DNA from: a virus
Length of the DNA: 64,000 nt
Virus record (IMG/VR): IMGVR_UViG_3300010885_044958
Span: 70,237 to 134,236 of that record
Strand: one strand, 5' to 3'
Within the stretch, counting starts at the first letter, position 1. Every line of letters begins with the position of its first letter. Shown piece after piece: positions 20,597-34,437 of the stretch. The translations under genes were made by a program, and so were the position numbers. The notes under the pieces are model-generated. The model saw only the letters and a program-made list of their open reading frames with translations. It searched no databases and was not told the DNA's origin.

Positions 20597-21412
20597 ATGA
20601 TAAAGTTTGTAGAAAAAGAACATAAATACACTTCAATTAATCCAGATGATAATATCAAATGGATTAGTGTCACGAGTGTGATAAAACAATTCGAGGAAGA
20701 ATTCAATACAGAAGTTCAAGCAGAAAAATGTTCTAAGAATAAAAAATCTAAATGGTACGGCAAATCCCCCGAAGAAATAAAAACTATCTGGGCACGAGTA
20801 AATCATGATTCAGTAGAACTAGGTAATTGGTACCATAAGCAAAGAGAAGATCAAATCTGTGGTGTAGAATCTTTAGATAGATCTGGTGAGACTTGTAAAA
20901 TAGTTAGACCAATAGTAAAAGATTTAGAAAAATTTGCGCCAGACCAAAAATTAGAAAACAATCATCTCTATCCAGAGCATATGGTTTTTTTAAAATCTGC
21001 AGGTATTTGTGGTCAATCAGATTTGGTAGAAGTAAGAAATAACACACTATATATAACAGACTACAAAACCAATAAGAACTTAACTACTGAAGGGTATACT
21101 AACTGGAAAGGAGAAACTAAAATGCTCCTGTATCCTCTATCCCACCTAGAGGAATGTAAACTGAATATATATAATATACAATTAAGTTTATATATGTATA
21201 TTATACTCAAGCACAACCCACAATTAAAACCAGGCAATCTTACAATACACCACGTAATATTTAAAGAAATAGATAGAGACTCAAATAATAATCCAATCTA
21301 TGATAGAGACTTTAATAATGAACCTATAGTAGAAAGAGTAGATATCTACGAAATGAAATATTTAAAAGATGAAGTGCAAGCAATATTAAATTATTTGAAA
21401 ACCAAGAAATGA
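20597..21412 (+). CDS. PD-(D/E)XK nuclease
   Basis: IKF.E.EHKY...SVTSVI...G...H...ICGQSDLV...ITDYKTNK...Y.IQLSLY; start probably MIKFVEKEHKY. Confidence 0.85.
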   Translation: MIKFVEKEHKYTSINPDDNIKWISVTSVIKQFEEEFNTEVQAEKCSKNKKSKWYGKSPEEIKTIWARVNHDSVELGNWYHKQREDQICGVESLDRSGETCKIVRPIVKDLEKFAPDQKLENNHLYPEHMVFLKSAGICGQSDLVEVRNNTLYITDYKTNKNLTTEGYTNWKGETKMLLYPLSHLEECKLNIYNIQLSLYMYIILKHNPQLKPGNLTIHHVIFKEIDRDSNNNPIYDRDFNNEPIVERVDIYEMKYLKDEVQAILNYLKTKK

Positions 21413-22482
21413 AAATAGCAGTAGTAGTAAAACCAAATAACGGGTGCGATTTCTACAGAGTAGTTTTACCTATGGAGTATTTGCCTTGGAAAGAAAATGG
21501 GGATACTGTAAAACTATTTTTACCAGATGGTACTTCAATACCTAATCCTTCAGACCTAGTTGGTTTTATTTCTGAGATAGAATCTTTTGAACCAGATCTA
21601 ATATTTTACAATAGAGATGTTCCAGGAAAAACTATAAAGTGGCTTGAAGTGCAAAAAAAGAAAGGCATTAAACTAGTAATGGATATAGATGACTATTGGG
21701 AACTATCTATAAATCATCCAGTACATTATCTTTGGTATAGAGATAAGATGAATGAGCGAGTTATAGAGAATCTAAAAACTGCCGATCTTGTTTTATGCAC
21801 CACAGAAATACTTAGAAAAAAGATTTTAAATTATAATAAGAATTGTATCGTTATTCCTAACGCAGTTCCTTTTGGAGAACCTTGGTATAAACAAACTGGT
21901 TATAAAGGTGAACTTGCAGATAGAAAAATGAATTTTTTATACGCAGGAGGCAGTACACATTACCAAGACATTCTTTTACTTAAGAATACATTTACAAAAA
22001 TTGGTGGAGAAAAGGCAGTTACTAATCGAGCTAAATTTACTTTAGCAGGGTTCAATCCTCTTCCAGATAAGCATTGCGAATGGGATAAAATGGCATCAAT
22101 ATTTTCTAGAGTTAAGTCTTACGAAATAAAAAACACACTTCCTATTCAAGCCCATATGTCTTTTTACGATACTGCAGATGTAGTTATAATTCCCTTAGTA
22201 AATAATGAGTTTAATAGATACAAATCTGAATTAAAAATTATCGAGGCAGCAACTAGAGAGCTACCTTGTATTGTATCTAAGACTTTACCCTACTCAGAAT
22301 TAGATTACCCAGGAATTCTTTGGGATGATTGGCAAAAAAATATTAAATATTTTTTGAATAATCAAAAAGAAGTTGTATCTTTGGGCAAACAATTAGCAGA
22401 AAAGGTAAAACAGAAGTATGACATAAGAACATGGTCTATCTCGCGTTACCAAATATTTAAACATTTAATAGATAAGAAATGA
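21409..22482 (+). CDS. GT-B-fold (GT4-like) glycosyltransferase
   Basis: GCDFYRV..P, MDIDDYW, VIPNAV, PLVNNEFNRYKSELKIIEA. Confidence 0.85.
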   Translation: MKIAVVVKPNNGCDFYRVVLPMEYLPWKENGDTVKLFLPDGTSIPNPSDLVGFISEIESFEPDLIFYNRDVPGKTIKWLEVQKKKGIKLVMDIDDYWELSINHPVHYLWYRDKMNERVIENLKTADLVLCTTEILRKKILNYNKNCIVIPNAVPFGEPWYKQTGYKGELADRKMNFLYAGGSTHYQDILLLKNTFTKIGGEKAVTNRAKFTLAGFNPLPDKHCEWDKMASIFSRVKSYEIKNTLPIQAHMSFYDTADVVIIPLVNNEFNRYKSELKIIEAATRELPCIVSKTLPYSELDYPGILWDDWQKNIKYFLNNQKEVVSLGKQLAEKVKQKYDIRTWSISRYQIFKHLIDKK

Positions 22483-22703
22483 TAGATTGTATCGTTGAAC
22501 AAGCAGCAATTAAGGATGGATTTGATTATTGGACATTGGATCTAGATGAGAACGATTTGGAGTACAACCAAGCAGAACTTAGACGCAAATTCATAGGAAA
22601 AGAAACTATGTATATGGGTTACAAGTTTAAAATAGAAGGTGTTGAATTCTATTCTATAGTTAAAGAGAAATTTATTCTTAAAGCAGTAAAGCAAGAAGAT
22701 TAA
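22479..22703 (+). CDS. hypothetical protein
   Basis: 74 aa, translationally coupled. Confidence 0.65.
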   Translation: MIDCIVEQAAIKDGFDYWTLDLDENDLEYNQAELRRKFIGKETMYMGYKFKIEGVEFYSIVKEKFILKAVKQED

Positions 22704-23215
22704 TGTATATTAAATTGTTTACAACAAACGGCGATGTTGCTGTGCCCACGGACAGTTGTTACGTTATAACTTGGCTAAAAGACATAATAGACAATTACCC
22801 TAAGAACTATATTAAGATATTTTCTTATCTCCAGTTTATGTATAGTTGGAATCCAGATGACAATCCATATCTGGCAATGAAAGAAGAAGATCGTGAAGAA
22901 ACAATTCTTTCAGATATCAAGGCAGACTTTTCTACAGAGGATGATTTGATTCAGATAGCTATGACTAATTGCCAAAAACTTTTTGAATTGCCTGCGTTTA
23001 GACTTTGGAAATCCGCAAAGAAAGGACTAGATAATATTCGAGAATATCTAGATAATAATAAAGTTTATTCTGGTAAGGATGGTAACAACAAAGATTATAG
23101 AGATACACTTAAGGATCTCCCAAATCTAGAGAAGGCATATAATGAAGGTTATAAAGCATTTATGGAAGAATCTAAATTAGAAGTAAGGGGCAATAGATTT
23201 AACTCACAAGTATAA
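22703..23215 (+). CDS. conserved crAss-like late protein (possible small terminase subunit)
   Basis: 'NPY....EEDREETIL...FSTEDD.I..A...C.KL.E.P..R' and C-terminal 'VRG'; normally lies just upstream of TerL. Confidence 0.55.
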   Translation: MYIKLFTTNGDVAVPTDSCYVITWLKDIIDNYPKNYIKIFSYLQFMYSWNPDDNPYLAMKEEDREETILSDIKADFSTEDDLIQIAMTNCQKLFELPAFRLWKSAKKGLDNIREYLDNNKVYSGKDGNNKDYRDTLKDLPNLEKAYNEGYKAFMEESKLEVRGNRFNSQV

Positions 23216-33055: not shown

Positions 33056-33795
33056 TAATAGTTGTTACTTTTAGTTTTGTTAAGTCGCAATATCTTGCCT
33101 GGATGTTAAATAAAAGTTTAACATCTCTGGGAATTAAACATGTTATTTATTTTGATAAAGATCAGTATATAGATCCACTAGTATTAAATGATTTAAATAA
33201 AAATAATGTTGATATTAGATATAAAGAAAACTACGAAGGGGGGCATGGTGGGTGGCCCGATTCAATGCAAAAAATAAATGCGTATAGAGATATTGTAAAA
33301 GATTATAATTTGCAAAATGATGATTGGCTTTTAGATATGGATGACGACACGTATATGTGTAATGACAGCATCTTAAAACTTTTAACTAATAATATTGATT
33401 TAGTTGGTATTCAACATGAAATACCACAACCTTCAAAAATAGGTATATTTGCACACATGAGTGGCGCATGTATGTGTATGAGAGGAGAAATTCTTTTAAA
33501 ACTTTTATCTCAGTCTGATAGTTTTTGGACAGAAACAAAAGATGAATTACTTGATTTTTGTTTTTCTCACATGTGGGATGTTGTAGTAAGTTACTGTTTA
33601 ACAAAGGTTGGAGCACGATCGTTAAATATGAGTAAAGTTATTAATATGGAATCAGATTCTGAAAATTACTTTTTAGGTAATATCAATAGTAATTTTTTTC
33701 ATTTTAATTATGTATTAAAGGAATATCTTGGTGAACCTACTCCTAATGGAAAATATGATATACCAATGATTCTACATAAAAAGAGTTTAATATAA
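33052..33795 (+). CDS. GT-A-fold glycosyltransferase-like protein
   Basis: DWLLDMDDDTY, HMSGAC, DVV.S. Confidence 0.6.
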   Translation: MIIVVTFSFVKSQYLAWMLNKSLTSLGIKHVIYFDKDQYIDPLVLNDLNKNNVDIRYKENYEGGHGGWPDSMQKINAYRDIVKDYNLQNDDWLLDMDDDTYMCNDSILKLLTNNIDLVGIQHEIPQPSKIGIFAHMSGACMCMRGEILLKLLSQSDSFWTETKDELLDFCFSHMWDVVVSYCLTKVGARSLNMSKVINMESDSENYFLGNINSNFFHFNYVLKEYLGEPTPNGKYDIPMILHKKSLI

Positions 33796-33804
33796 AATAT
33801 AGTT

Positions 33805-34437
33805 ATGAAGTTAACATATAATAATATTGAAAAAGAATATAATAAAGAAGATTTATTAATATCAGGAAAACACTATCAAATGTTATGTGAGTTCCCTTCC
33901 GATATATATGAACATCTGCCTACATTAAAAAAATATAGCGAACAATGCAATACAATAACTGAATTTGGAGTTAGGTATGCTTGTGCGACATGGGCATTTA
34001 TTGAAGCTTCACCAAAAAAACTGTTGTGTTACGATATTAACTATGATTTTTTTAAACCTTCTGAAGAAATTATAAATGAAGTCTGCAACTTAAAAAATAT
34101 AGATTTTAAATTTATATTAGGCGATTCACTGAAAGTTGATATTGAAAACACAGATCTATTATTTATAGATACTTTGCATACTTATAATCAACTTTATTTG
34201 GAATTAAATAAACATGCAGAAAATGTAAATAAATGGATTATTTTACACGATACTATTTCATTTGGAGATAGGGATGAGGCAATCTATGAACACGCGTCAA
34301 ATATTATAAAAACCGAAACTACTAAAAAAGTGGGTTTAGTTCAAGCTGTTAATGATTTTTTATTGAATAATTCTGATTGGTTTATAAAAGAAGTATATGA
34401 AAACAACAACGGATTAACAATTTTAGAAAGGAAATAA
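33805..34437 (+). CDS. SAM-dependent methyltransferase (Methyltransf_24-like)
   Basis: SDIYEHLPTL, ITEFGVR, DLLFIDTLHTY.QL..EL, IILHDT, NNNGLT.L. Confidence 0.85.
   Translation: MKLTYNNIEKEYNKEDLLISGKHYQMLCEFPSDIYEHLPTLKKYSEQCNTITEFGVRYACATWAFIEASPKKLLCYDINYDFFKPSEEIINEVCNLKNIDFKFILGDSLKVDIENTDLLFIDTLHTYNQLYLELNKHAENVNKWIILHDTISFGDRDEAIYEHASNIIKTETTKKVGLVQAVNDFLLNNSDWFIKEVYENNNGLTILERK

What the first reader, a model, noticed from the sequence alone, without database searches (positions are those of the whole stretch)
21409..34437. Large phage-encoded fucose-glycan pathway fused into the DNA-packaging operon
Seen: about 11 glycosyltransferase-like ORFs (GT-B, several GT2, GT31-like, WavQ-like), gmd plus fcl, and two SAM methyltransferases. 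Most are coupled by overlapping stop/start codons, and the last overlaps the terL start by 1 nt. I see no flippase, polymerase or obvious multi-TM protein. Established: Gmd and Fcl make GDP-L-fucose; virion glycosylation is known in giant viruses and some mycobacteriophages. Inference: a cytoplasmic, late-expressed assembly line for a methylated, fucosylated glycan on the virion, rather than host O-antigen conversion. DNA hypermodification is the alternative. This scale looks exceptional for a crAss-like phage.
Basis: partly seen in the sequence, partly recalled or inferred. Interest (0 to 1): 0.85.

Follow-up and report, generated by a model that had tools for sequence, protein, structure and literature searches.

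The report
Phage sugar-building gene block beside terminase
A lake-water crAss-like phage carries, just before its DNA-packaging gene, a 13-kb run of soluble sugar-making and sugar-transferring enzymes whose core is a phage-only cassette found beside packaging genes in many unrelated phages, and it most likely sugar-coats the virus particle, though the target is untested.

Summary
Window 21409-34437 is one + strand array of 20 ORFs, 15 of 20 junctions overlapping, and it ends in TAATG on terL.

- **Sugar supply:** Gmd passes its curated cut-off. Fcl is strongly similar.
- **Glycosyltransferases:** Seven are supported: one GT-B, four GT2-type, and two GT8/GT24-like GT-A enzymes shown by AlphaFold models (pLDDT about 91). 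Four more are only candidates.
- **Methyltransferases:** Two methyltransferase-like proteins have moderate support.
- **Other ORFs:** PhoH and five small or unknown ORFs also lie inside.
- **Membrane parts:** No transmembrane protein, flippase or polymerase was found.
- **Assembly:** Independent contigs from four lake samples cover the block and both junctions at even depth, so it is not a chimera.

New here: o28128, o28802, o29351, o30216 and o32459 form a phage-specific cassette. In 55 of 80 viral loci a TerL lies 0.8-3.6 kb away, across nine TerL lineages. The domains also occur fused in single proteins. Block-less relatives join a conserved 170-aa gene directly to terL.

The known routes to DNA glycosylation lack their entry enzymes: none in this record, 0 of 5 in complete cassette phages.

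Best reading, at 0.5: a cytoplasmic, late-made, methylated fucose-containing glycan on virion proteins. The target is untested. The scan noted a similar cassette before on other DNA (e1-3299189).

The parts
21409..22482 (+). GT-B type glycosyltransferase (357 aa)
   Evidence: phrog_7162 'glycosyltransferase' at 1.7e-53. Pfam Glyco_trans_1_4 at 5.7e-5 and 23.8 bits, below the 27-bit cut-off. Homologues occur in 27 loci.
22479..22703 (+). 74-aa ORF, unknown
   Evidence: No family hit. Homologues only in L001, L002 and L010.
22703..23215 (+). Conserved 170-aa protein. It lies directly before terL in relatives that lack the block. Candidate small terminase subunit (inference).
   Evidence: Homologues in 9 loci. 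In L003 and L005-L009 the order is exonuclease, this gene, terL. Only phrog_16390 (unknown function) at 4.7e-4.
23220..23621 (+). 133-aa acidic ORF, unknown
   Evidence: No family hit. Homologues in L001 and L002.
23618..24121 (+). Short GT2-type glycosyltransferase (167 aa)
   Evidence: Its own Pfam Glyco_tranf_2_4 match is E 0.0085. Of 7 homologues or paralogues, 4 pass the 27.5-bit cut-off.
24124..24315 (+). 63-aa ORF that fills the only long gap
   Evidence: Open frame; its stop overlaps the next start as TAATG.
24315..24905 (+). GT2-type glycosyltransferase (196 aa)
   Evidence: Its own Pfam GT2 match is E 0.073. Of 5 homologues (40-48% identical), 4 pass the 23.3-bit cut-off.
24910..25581 (+). 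PhoH-like ATPase
   Evidence: PF02562 at 6.9e-49. phrog_170 at 3.5e-57.
25544..26266 (+). 240-aa ORF, weak GT2-like candidate
   Evidence: Pfam GT2 at E 0.035, aligned over 3-155 of 168 model positions. The T-D-S-D motif is conserved in 3 sequences. Neither of 2 homologues has a Pfam hit. The PDB profile search found nothing.
26245..27252 (+). GDP-mannose 4,6-dehydratase (Gmd)
   Evidence: TIGR01472 at 522 bits, cut-off 415. PF16363 at 7.7e-140.
27242..28138 (+). GDP-L-fucose synthase (Fcl)-like epimerase/reductase
   Evidence: NF047922 at 1.3e-119 and 399 bits, below the 500-bit cut-off. PF01370 at 9.5e-64.
28128..28805 (+). GT2 glycosyltransferase, core cassette gene 1
   Evidence: PF00535 at 33.7 bits, cut-off 23.3. 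phrog_14945 at 8.8e-17. Homologues in 70 of 80 viral loci. Invariant S-D-D.
28802..29350 (+). GT2 glycosyltransferase, core cassette gene 2
   Evidence: PF00535 at 28.7 bits. phrog_14775 at 1.9e-35. Homologues in 76 of 80 loci. Weak TAGT match, E 0.0042, below its cut-off.
29351..30223 (+). GT-A fold enzyme of a family without Pfam coverage (GT24/GT8-like), core cassette gene 3
   Evidence: 174 homologues found; none of the 120 listed has a Pfam domain. Invariant R-D-x-D-S. AlphaFold pLDDT 91.8. Foldseek best match is the UGGT catalytic domain at 5.4e-8, with 418 hits at E<=1e-3. VIA-align Z is 10.7-11.9.
30216..31007 (+). GT8-like GT-A glycosyltransferase of a family without Pfam coverage, core cassette gene 4
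   Evidence: None of 34 homologues has a Pfam hit. Invariant D96-x-D98 and H221. AlphaFold pLDDT 90.8. Foldseek best matches are GT8 3tzt, LgtC and glycogenin at about 1e-7, TM 0.5-0.56.
31004..31654 (+). 216-aa ORF, unverified GT31-like candidate without a DXD motif
   Evidence: One homologue, L031, matches Galactosyl_T at E 0.002, below cut-off. Both sequences have ASSYVN where GT31 would have D-D-D; that motif comparison is from memory. The PDB profile search found nothing.
31651..32469 (+). WavQ-like protein (272 aa), fold untested
   Evidence: 66 homologues, none with a Pfam domain. One (P0178, E 6.6e-25) is named WavQ by its source. The PDB profile search found nothing.
32459..33055 (+). 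Methyltransferase-like domain, core cassette gene 5
   Evidence: Invariant E-x-G-x-G. 2596 cluster representatives at E<=0.001. Fused to o30216-like, o29351-like and GT2 domains in natural proteins. Its profile hits the Pfam Methyltransf_24 domain of P0397 at 3e-6. Its own Pfam Methyltransf_23 match is only E 0.02.
33052..33795 (+). 247-aa ORF with an invariant DxD, GT-A candidate
   Evidence: Homologues in 11 loci inside the same cassettes. Invariant D97-x-D99. One homologue matches Galactosyl_T at E 0.0036, below cut-off. Weak PDB hits include ABO transferase and C1GalT1, E 0.35-0.5.
33805..34437 (+). O-methyltransferase-like protein (CmcI/YrrM type). Its stop overlaps the terL start.
   Evidence: 3660 homologues. 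Sources name some 'O-methyltransferase YrrM' or 'cephalosporin hydroxylase', and a few carry PF04989 or PF13578. All 19 PDB profile hits are O-methyltransferases, E 0.046-0.67. TAATG junction.
34437..36641 (+). Large terminase subunit (right boundary)
   Evidence: phrog_6681 at 6.6e-68. About 25% identical to crAss-like and Flavobacterium phage TerL.
20456..21412 (+). PD-(D/E)XK exonuclease (left boundary)
   Evidence: phrog_298 at 7.3e-21. PF12705 at 22.4 bits. Conserved in all relatives.

Best explanation
The block is a real, phage-owned glycan assembly line that sits inside the packaging and morphogenesis transcription unit of a freshwater crAss-like phage.

Shown:
- Gmd and an Fcl-like enzyme are present, enough to turn host GDP-mannose into GDP-L-fucose.
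- At least seven soluble glycosyltransferases are present, plus four further candidates and two methyltransferase-like proteins.
- There is no membrane, lipid-carrier or export component.
- The central five genes (two GT2, two GT8/GT24-like GT-A enzymes, one methyltransferase-like domain) form a phage-specific cassette. It lies within 0.8-3.6 kb of terL in nine TerL lineages.
- The cassette's domains are also found fused into single polypeptides.

Inferred:
- The enzymes are made with the late structural proteins.
- They act in the cytoplasm, adding sugars stepwise and then O-methylating some of them.
- They build a fucose-containing oligosaccharide on a phage-made acceptor, most probably one or more virion proteins.
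- The variable outer genes (GT-B, extra GT2s, gmd/fcl, WavQ-like protein, second methyltransferase) diversify the glycan between related phages.
For: Gene identities.

Soluble enzymes, no export machinery: no hydrophobic 19-mer above 1.7; 112 other ORFs of the genome; no flippase, polymerase, ABC transporter, polyprenyl-phosphate transferase or integrase family at E<=1e-4.

Coupling to terL. No + strand terminator-like site in 19000-38000, where shuffles give 6.1 +/- 2.4.

Cassette conservation among 80 viral loci: o29351 in 79, o28802 in 76, o28128 in 70, o30216 in 56, o32459 in 50.

TerL adjacency. A TerL is present in 55 of 80 loci, always 772-3560 bp from the core, 29 upstream and 26 downstream. 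These TerLs fall into 9 clusters at 35% identity. Of the 25 loci without a TerL, 24 have under 3.6 kb of sequence on at least one side. In L012 the cassette sits between terL and portal, followed by the major head protein.

Fusions. L021 has one 446-aa protein joining o30216-like and o32459-like parts. Among the top 150 representatives of the o32459 family, 11 are fused to an o30216-like domain. One of these (P0338, 658 aa) also carries an o29351-like domain. One representative is fused to GT2.

Phage specificity. A pattern scan of 185,579 prokaryote genomes found 3 loci, and all 3 carry the phage cassette, one with a TerL 90% identical to that of L028. The viral collection gave 127 loci.

Indel at a fixed site. 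Relatives L003 and L005-L009 join the 170-aa gene directly to terL. L001 and L002 have 7-8 kb blocks. L010 has an 11-kb block with gmd and fcl.

Precedents:
- Cluster O mycobacteriophages have an O-methyltransferase gene plus three glycosyltransferase genes whose products modify capsid and tail-tube proteins (PMC11600133, passages).
- Chlorovirus PBCV-1 glycosylates its capsid protein in the cytoplasm with its own enzymes. The glycan carries fucose and methylated rhamnose, and A064R (638 aa) is a glycosyltransferase-glycosyltransferase-methyltransferase fusion (PMC7826918, passages).
- The closest viral structure matches of o29351 are giant-virus proteins: Aureococcus virus at 1.4e-12, then Mimivirus, Catovirus and Tupanvirus.
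Against: - No call identifies the acceptor.
- Late expression rests on layout alone.
- Four of the eleven glycosyltransferase calls are unverified, and o31004 lacks a DXD motif.
- VIA-align scores tie glycosyltransferases with sugar nucleotidyltransferases (GlmU, RmlA) for o29351, Z 10.7-11.9. The fold alone therefore does not prove transferase chemistry.
- The only capsid correlate fails in a relative. The window, L001 and L002 have a Thr-rich 12-aa loop in the major capsid protein that block-less relatives lack. L010's phage has the fucose and core genes but a different, shorter loop.
- Terminase adjacency would also suit a DNA-directed function. Pyle et al. list terminase among the neighbours of DNA glycosyltransferase homologues (bioRxiv 10.1101/2023.12.21.572611, section 9).
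- L035 has more than 4 kb on both sides of the core without a TerL. L048 has a helicase and a DNA methyltransferase downstream instead.
Confidence: 0.5

Rival explanations
1. Host envelope remodelling. The soluble transferases extend or cap a host lipid-linked or cell-surface glycan (LPS, capsule or S-layer glycan) during infection, using the host's own carrier, flippase and ligase. The benefit would be blocking superinfection or stopping progeny from sticking to debris.
For: - GT2, GT8-like (LgtC is a lipooligosaccharide enzyme) and WavQ-like (named after an LPS-core gene) proteins are typical of LPS and capsule loci.
- gmd and fcl are common in O-antigen loci (general knowledge).
- Authors of cyanophage genomes read such genes as cell-wall modification (PMC12801897, passages).
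Against: - No initiating transferase, flippase, polymerase, ligase or any membrane protein is in the block or the genome.
- No integrase family was found, so lysogenic conversion is unlikely here.
- The o29351 family was not found in any non-phage context among 185,579 prokaryote genomes; all 3 hits were phage cassettes.
- The position inside packaging and head modules in nine TerL lineages is not explained.
Confidence: 0.2
2. DNA hypermodification. The transferases glycosylate a modified base in phage DNA before or during packaging, protecting it from restriction.
For: - The cassette is adjacent to terminase in nine lineages.
- o28802 has a weak match to TET-associated glycosyltransferase, PF20691 at E 0.0042.
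- Pyle et al. found about 25,000 phage contigs with homologues of DNA glycosyltransferases, some beside terminase and structural genes (abstract and section 9).
- Poly-arabinosylated cytosines exist in RB69 and DLP3 (PMC13326640, abstract).
- L048 has a helicase and a DNA methyltransferase next to its cassette.
Against: - The known routes need a hydroxylated base made by a thymidylate-synthase homologue or a TET-type dioxygenase.
- This 134-kb record has no PF00303, PF12851 or PF00145 match. The record is estimated only 73% complete.
- Five cassette-bearing genomes rated 100% complete have 0 of 5 PF00303 and 0 of 5 PF12851 matches. The PF12851 search had no positive control.
- Known DNA glycans are mono- to trisaccharides. 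Here 7-11 transferases and 2 methyltransferases are present.
- The TAGT match is below its cut-off and weaker than the GT2 match.
Confidence: 0.12
3. Another cytoplasmic acceptor. The enzymes glycosylate a non-virion phage or host protein, or make a free methylated oligosaccharide or glycoconjugate, for example a decoy or a storage or regulatory molecule.
For: - Close structural relatives include self- or protein-glycosylating GT8/GT24 enzymes: glycogenin, UGGT, GlyE and Skp1 galactosyltransferase.
- The acceptor is unidentified.
- No conserved non-enzyme gene travels with the core across lineages.
Against: - There is no positive evidence.
- It does not explain the recurrent position beside terminase, portal and head genes.
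Confidence: 0.1
4. Assembly chimera. The block is host or foreign DNA joined to the phage by mis-assembly.
For: None found.
Against: - GC content is 0.285-0.317 across the block and 0.301 in the 2 kb before it, with no step at either junction; it rises to about 0.34 only from 36 kb on.
- In run X1, depth is 4.9-8.1 in all 30 bins over 18500-38000. Separately assembled contigs with 0 mismatches bridge 21409 (21142-22829) and 34437 (32403-34528). Three further lake samples hold identical pieces of both block and flanks. X1 may be the source sample.
- Three related phage contigs carry syntenic blocks at the same site.
Confidence: 0.01

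Closest known systems
Mycobacteriophage virion glycosylation genes (Cluster O: an O-methyltransferase gene followed by three glycosyltransferase genes; Freeman et al. 2023, seen only through citing passages in PMC11600133 and PMC12619734; the paper itself is not held)
   Same: Phage-encoded tandem glycosyltransferases plus an O-methyltransferase. Soluble enzymes with no export machinery. 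Reported to modify capsid and tail-tube proteins.
   Different: - The hosts and phage lineage differ: actinobacterial siphoviruses against a crAss-like phage.
- Here there are 7-11 transferases, a phage-made GDP-fucose supply and two GT-A families without Pfam coverage.
- Sequence relatedness to the mycobacteriophage enzymes was not tested.
- The target here is untested.
Chlorovirus PBCV-1 capsid glycosylation machinery (A064R, A111/114R; PMC7826918, passages)
   Same: - Virus-encoded cytoplasmic glycosylation.
- A glycan with fucose and O-methylated deoxyhexose.
- Multidomain glycosyltransferase-glycosyltransferase-methyltransferase proteins: A064R has 638 aa, and the natural fusion P0338 has 658 aa with o29351-like, o30216-like and o32459 domains.
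- That PBCV-1 also encodes its own GDP-fucose enzymes is recalled, not read here.
   Different: - The host is a eukaryotic alga and the virus a giant virus.
- Homology to A064R was not tested, and A064R is not among the 50 best BFVD matches of o29351.
- The resemblance is in logic, not shown descent.
Phage DNA glycosylation gene clusters (T4 glucosyltransferases; methylase/TET/glycosyltransferase clusters of Pyle et al.; arabinosyl-5-hydroxycytosine of RB69)
   Same: Phage GT-A and GT-B enzymes, sometimes beside terminase or structural genes. o28802 has a weak TAGT-like match.
   Different: The defining entry enzymes (thymidylate-synthase homologue or TET-type dioxygenase) were sought and not found here or in 5 complete cassette phages. 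There are many more transferases, plus methyltransferases.
Earlier finding of this scan, e1-3299189: a variable glycan-building island between terminase and portal of a Bacteroidota phage
   Same: It shares short words with o29351. Its layout matches my group C loci (L012, L021, L023: terL, cassette, portal, major head protein).
   Different: - It is a different phage lineage and a smaller cassette (about 7.8 kb, six transferase-like genes, no gmd or fcl reported).
- Here the cassette lies upstream of terL in a crAss-like phage.
- It is an AI note, not independent evidence.
Seroconverting Gtr and O-antigen modification modules of temperate phages
   Same: Phage-encoded glycosyltransferases that change a glycan.
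   Different: By general knowledge, Gtr systems need membrane proteins (a GtrA flippase and an integral-membrane GtrC) and a lysogenic lifestyle. No membrane protein or integrase was found here.

Membership tests
GDP-L-fucose de novo pathway (Gmd + Fcl) | GDP-mannose 4,6-dehydratase that reaches the equivalog cut-off | tested here: met
   TIGR01472 at 522.4 bits against cut-off 415.
GDP-L-fucose de novo pathway (Gmd + Fcl) | GDP-L-fucose synthase that reaches the equivalog cut-off | tested here: inconclusive
   NF047922 at E 1.3e-119 but 399 bits against cut-off 500, aligned over 2-297 of 308 positions. It is adjacent to gmd and overlaps it by 11 nt.
GT-A fold, metal-dependent glycosyltransferases (GT8/GT24-like) | Rossmann-like GT-A fold in a confident model | tested here: met
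   o29351: pLDDT 91.8, Foldseek match to the UGGT catalytic domain at 5.4e-8, VIA-align Z 11-12. o30216: pLDDT 90.8, matches to GT8 3tzt, LgtC and glycogenin at about 1e-7, TM 0.5-0.56.
GT-A fold, metal-dependent glycosyltransferases (GT8/GT24-like) | Conserved DXD metal and nucleotide-sugar binding motif | tested here: met
   o29351 family: D110-x-D112 invariant in 36 sequences. o30216 family: D96-x-D98 invariant in 33 sequences.
GT-A fold, metal-dependent glycosyltransferases (GT8/GT24-like) | Sequence membership in Pfam Glyco_transf_8 or CAZy GT8 | tested here: not met
   No Pfam hit for o29351, o30216 or 34 o30216 homologues. PDB profile searches found nothing significant. They work like GT8/GT24 enzymes but are not members by sequence.
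   o31004 has no hit of its own. Its one homologue scores E 0.002 and 18.4 bits against cut-off 23. Both have ASSYVN at the expected motif. o33052 matches Fringe at E 0.88, and one homologue matches Galactosyl_T at E 0.0036.
Class I SAM-dependent O-methyltransferases | Glycine-rich SAM-binding motif I and a family-level match | tested here: inconclusive
   o33805: Methyltransf_24 at E 0.051. Named homologues and a few Pfam-bearing ones exist. All 19 PDB hits are O-methyltransferases but weak. o32459: invariant ExGxG, and its profile hits a Methyltransf_24 domain at 3e-6, but none of 28 homologues has a Pfam hit.
Phage DNA glycosyl-hypermodification clusters | An enzyme that makes the hydroxylated base: thymidylate-synthase homologue or TET/JBP dioxygenase (with a C5-methylase for the TET route) | tested here: not met
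   No match in the 134-kb record, which is 73% complete by CheckV. 0 of 5 complete cassette genomes have either family. The TET search had no positive control.
Wzx/Wzy-, ABC- or synthase-dependent surface polysaccharide loci; Gtr seroconversion | An initiating polyprenyl-phosphate transferase and a membrane flippase, polymerase or transporter | tested here: not met
   No hydrophobic 19-mer above 1.7 in any block ORF. No such Pfam family among 112 other ORFs at E<=1e-4.
Phage virion glycosylation systems (mycobacteriophage type) | Tandem glycosyltransferase and O-methyltransferase genes within or beside the structural and packaging genes | tested here: met
   The block abuts terL. The cassette lies 0.8-3.6 kb from TerL in 55 of 80 loci, and between terL and portal in L012.
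Phage virion glycosylation systems (mycobacteriophage type) | A glycan demonstrably attached to capsid or tail proteins | not testable with these tools
   This needs virions and mass spectrometry or lectin blots.

The most novel reading that the evidence does not exclude
The five-gene core is a mobile, phage-only 'virion glyco-cassette': GT2, GT2, two GT8/GT24-like families without Pfam coverage, and a methyltransferase-like domain. It has spread among at least nine unrelated terminase lineages of tailed phages, from crAss-like podoviruses to 40-60 kb siphovirus-like phages. It always sits in the packaging and head module, and its domains sometimes fuse into one A064R-like polypeptide. If it glycosylates capsids or tails, then self-encoded virion glycosylation is a common trait of environmental phages, not a mycobacteriophage or giant-virus curiosity. 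In that case the variable outer genes, here a fucose branch and extra transferases, would act as a fast-evolving surface-coat locus.
Probability: 0.4. Interest if true: 0.8.

Novelty: new variant of a known kind. Interest (0 to 1): 0.64.

Why it matters
Virus-encoded glycosylation of the virus particle is established for chloroviruses, mimiviruses and some mycobacteriophages. A conserved cassette with the same logic, found beside terminase genes in many uncultured phages including a crAss-like one, would mean sugar coats on phage particles are widespread. That would matter for phage stability, adsorption, aggregation, recognition by grazers or immune systems, and lectin-based virome methods.

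The work also gives folds to two large protein families that had no annotation: at least 174 homologues for one, and for the linked domain 2596 cluster representatives. It also gives a concrete, clonable five-gene unit for testing what such enzymes glycosylate. If the target turned out to be DNA, it would be a glycosylation route without the known entry enzymes, which would also be new.

Tried and rejected
**Sequence and profile searches that found nothing**
- The profile searches against PDB sequences for the o29351, o30216, o32459, o33052, o31651, o25544 and o31004 families gave nothing significant; best E was 0.11-0.84.
- hhalign of the o29351, o30216 and o33052 profiles against the o28802 GT2 profile gave probabilities below 1%. 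o29351 against o30216 gave E 0.039 over 85 columns, which is suggestive only.
- Megablast of the block against 50,697 phage records found no match.
- Pattern scans of the viral collection for close relatives of o31004 and o25544 found none.

**Candidate acceptor sites**
- The Thr-rich 12-aa insertion in the major capsid protein (residues 158-169) is present in the window, L001 and L002 and absent in block-less relatives. L010's phage has the fucose and core genes but a different loop. The correlation rests on a single contrast and partly fails, so it is kept only as a lead.
- The most Ser/Thr-rich 15-mer of the genome lies near the C-terminus of a variable structural-region protein, 47348-48214. 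Its homologues are too patchy to test anything.

**Expression and read evidence**
- No RNA holder was listed for the stretch.
- The contig 'joints' listed all have fewer than 30 letters on the shorter side, and I did not count them.
- The sigma-70 promoter scan found fewer sites than shuffles do (92 against 109), so it is uninformative.

**Literature**
- A full-text search for crAss-like + glycosyltransferase + fucose returned 0 papers.
- Freeman et al. 2023 and the journal version of Pyle et al. are not held.

**Not run**
- Complex prediction was not used, because an enzyme with its substrate is a poor case for it.

Full report
**What the window is.** The window is the right half (70237-134236) of a single 134,236-bp viral record. 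It is a divergent crAss-like phage.
- TerL (34437-36641) matches phrog_6681 at 6.6e-68. It is only about 25% identical to crAss-like and Flavobacterium phage terminases: 124 records matched, all below 60% identity.
- The capsid gene (40849-42534) matches Pfam Crass_capsid. Window 55867-60534 matches the crAss muzzle protein.
- Public runs that hold the stretch are labelled freshwater or lake metagenomes.

**The observation.** From 21409 to 34437 there is one uninterrupted + strand array.
- Of the 20 junctions between the exonuclease ORF and terL, 15 overlap, 1 abuts and 4 are gaps of 4, 4, 9 and 193 nt.
- The 193-nt gap holds an open 63-aa ORF whose stop overlaps the next start.
- The last ORF ends TAATG on the terL start.
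- Some overlaps depend on the first-start rule of the ORF lister; the 38-nt and 22-nt overlaps use TTG and GTG starts.
- No terminator-like site lies on the + strand between 19000 and 38000.

**Gene identities with family-level support.**
- Gmd passes its equivalog cut-off (522 against 415 bits).
- Fcl is strongly similar (1.3e-119) but below its cut-off (399 against 500 bits).
- o28128 and o28802 pass the Pfam GT2 cut-off. PhoH is clear.
- o21409 matches a phage GT-B family at 1.7e-53.
- o24315 and o23618 are below threshold themselves. However, 4 of 5 and 4 of 7 of their homologues in related phages pass the GT2 and Glyco_tranf_2_4 cut-offs.

**Two families without annotation turn out to be GT-A enzymes.**
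- o29351 has 174 detectable homologues, and none of the 120 listed carries a Pfam domain. None of 34 o30216 homologues has a Pfam hit.
- Alignments show an invariant R-D-x-D-S in o29351, and D-x-D plus a distal His in o30216.
- The AlphaFold models are confident: pLDDT 91.8 and 90.8, pTM 0.90 and 0.91.
- Foldseek places o29351 nearest the UGGT catalytic domain, LARGE1 and chondroitin polymerase (best 5.4e-8, 418 hits at E<=1e-3). It places o30216 nearest GT8 enzymes: 3tzt, LgtC, glycogenin, UGGT and GlyE (about 1e-7, TM 0.5-0.56).
- VIA-align gives Z 10.7-11.9 for o29351. It ties glycosyltransferases with sugar nucleotidyltransferases, so the fold is the general nucleotide-diphospho-sugar transferase fold. 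The DXD motif and the Foldseek order favour a transferase.
- The protein-atlas feature search agrees, as a lead only.
- In the viral structure library the best matches of o29351 are giant-virus proteins and uncultured tailed-phage proteins.

**What stays unverified.**
- o25544: GT2 at E 0.035.
- o31004: one homologue matches Galactosyl_T at E 0.002, and neither sequence has a DXD motif.
- o31651: 66 homologues, none with a Pfam domain, one named WavQ.
- o33052: invariant DxD, with one sub-threshold Galactosyl_T hit.
- These four are candidates only. The count is therefore seven supported glycosyltransferases and up to eleven.
- o33805 belongs to a very large family. Some members are named O-methyltransferase YrrM or cephalosporin hydroxylase, and all 19 weak PDB hits of its profile are O-methyltransferases.
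- o32459 has a conserved ExGxG. Its profile hits, at 3e-6, a domain that Pfam calls Methyltransf_24. Its own Pfam evidence is weak.

**Not a chimera.**
- GC content shows no step at either junction.
- In run X1, depth is 4.9-8.1 in all 30 bins across 18500-38000. Separately assembled contigs with no mismatches bridge both junctions. Three other lake samples hold identical pieces of block and flanks. X1 may be the source sample.

**Synteny in the crAss-like lineage.** A TerL search returned nine related loci.
- In L003 and L005-L009 (TerL 51-54% identical) the order is exonuclease, a homologue of the 170-aa o22703, then terL, with nothing between.
- L001 and L002 (78% and 71%) carry 7-8 kb blocks with the GT-B, several GT2 paralogues and PhoH, but no gmd or fcl.
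- L010 (TerL 61% identical by BLASTP) carries an 11-kb block with gmd, fcl and the five core genes.
- The site is therefore a variable island. The window's version is the largest seen. The conserved 170-aa gene may be the small terminase subunit; that is inference only.

**The core cassette.** Searching the viral collection with the o29351 alignment gave 127 loci, of which 80 were kept.
- Homologues co-occur in the same strand and order: o28802 in 76 loci, o28128 in 70, o30216 in 56, o32459 in 50, o33052 in 11 and the GT-B in 27.
- A TerL is present in 55 of the 80 loci, always 772-3560 bp from the core, upstream in 29 and downstream in 26.
- Of the 25 loci without a TerL, 24 have under 3.6 kb of sequence on at least one side. 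L035 is a real exception.
- The TerLs fall into nine clusters at 35% identity.
- Layouts differ between lineages:
  - replication genes, cassette, terS, terL;
  - terL, cassette, tape-measure-like gene;
  - terL, cassette, portal, major head protein.
- Relatives of the L012 terminase at 47% identity have terL followed directly by the next large ORF and no cassette.
- Homing endonuclease genes interrupt some cassettes.

**Fusions and phage specificity.**
- L021 encodes a single 446-aa protein that joins o30216-like and o32459-like parts.
- The o32459 family has 2596 cluster representatives.
- Among its top 150 representatives, 11 carry an o30216-like domain. One of these (P0338, 658 aa) also has an o29351-like domain. 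One representative carries a Pfam GT2 domain, and five are tandem duplications.
- A pattern scan of 185,579 prokaryote genomes found three loci. All three are the same phage cassette on short metagenome-assembled contigs.

**Which acceptor?**
- Known DNA glycosylation routes begin with a thymidylate-synthase homologue or a TET-type dioxygenase (abstracts).
- Neither these nor a C5-methylase is found in this record. The record is 73% complete by CheckV.
- Five complete cassette-bearing genomes have none of the two entry families either. The TET search had no positive control.
- Surface-polysaccharide routes need membrane components, and none is present. No integrase was seen.
- The layout matches the two known cases of virus-encoded particle glycosylation: Cluster O mycobacteriophages and chlorovirus PBCV-1.
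- This is why I put virion-protein glycosylation first, at 0.5. Terminase adjacency is also compatible with a DNA-directed role, and Pyle et al. list terminase among the neighbours of glycosyltransferase homologues.
- My attempts to find a matching acceptor feature in capsid proteins were inconclusive.

**Novelty.**
- Phage virion glycosylation and phage gmd/fcl genes are known kinds.
- A cyanophage with 13 glycosyltransferases has been described as possibly the record for marine phages, so the scale here is high but not unique.
- A full-text search for crAss-like + glycosyltransferase + fucose found no paper.
My group C loci reproduce that layout independently.
- New here are the fold assignment of two unannotated families, the cross-lineage link to terminase, the fusion proteins, and the crAss-like example with its own fucose supply.

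Noticed in passing
L092:3520-4374 (- strand; G000 39520-40374): A 284-aa protein matches Pfam dGTP_diPhyd_N (dATP/dGTP diphosphohydrolase N-terminal domain) at 7.9e-26. From memory, this domain is linked to phages that replace a purine. No PurZ search was made.
   Followed up: no
L092:12052-18863 (- strand; G000 48052-54863): Five consecutive genes match Amidoligase_2, a glutamine amidotransferase, ATP-grasp, Peptidase_C26 and a phiEco32-like COOH-NH2 ligase. This looks like a peptide- or amide-ligating module of unknown target, possibly a separate modification system.
   Followed up: no
L091:806-9763 (G000 18806-27763): A 2985-aa giant ORF of the virion-protein region contains a 2OG-Fe(II) oxygenase (AlkB-like) stretch at residues 2307-2451. 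The score is E 3.9e-7 and 30.9 bits, just under the 31.2-bit cut-off.
   Followed up: no
window 40849-42534, capsid residues 158-169 and 417-424: The major capsid protein of the window, L001 and L002 has a 12-aa Gly/Ser/Thr-rich insertion and an 8-aa insertion that block-less relatives lack. L010's phage has a different, shorter first insertion and lacks the second.
   Followed up: partly
window 47348-48214: This 288-aa structural-region protein holds the most Ser/Thr-rich 15-mer of the genome (11 of 15) near its C-terminus, plus a Gly run near residue 40. It is poorly conserved among relatives, with partial hits in 2 of 5 records.
   Followed up: partly
L010:5082-5648; L048:4277-5089; L029:10864-11445; L017:4087-4638: Homing or HNH endonuclease genes sit inside or beside the glyco-cassette in several phages. 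They may help move the cassette.
   Followed up: no
window 20456-21412: The exonuclease ORF as listed begins with a hydrophobic 19-mer (hydropathy 2.33). Homologues align only from residue 34-49 onward, so the true start is probably downstream.
   Followed up: partly
window 22703-23215: This 170-aa gene is the only one that always lies next to terL in block-less relatives, so it may be the small terminase subunit. In the window it is separated from terL by 11.2 kb of glyco genes.
   Followed up: partly
L090:11993-18796, L091:806-9763, L091:9782-16279: Three giant + strand ORFs (2267, 2985 and 2165 aa) at the start of the contig continue the structural arm that runs off the window's end. The record therefore looks circularly permuted, although no terminal repeat was found.
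   Followed up: no
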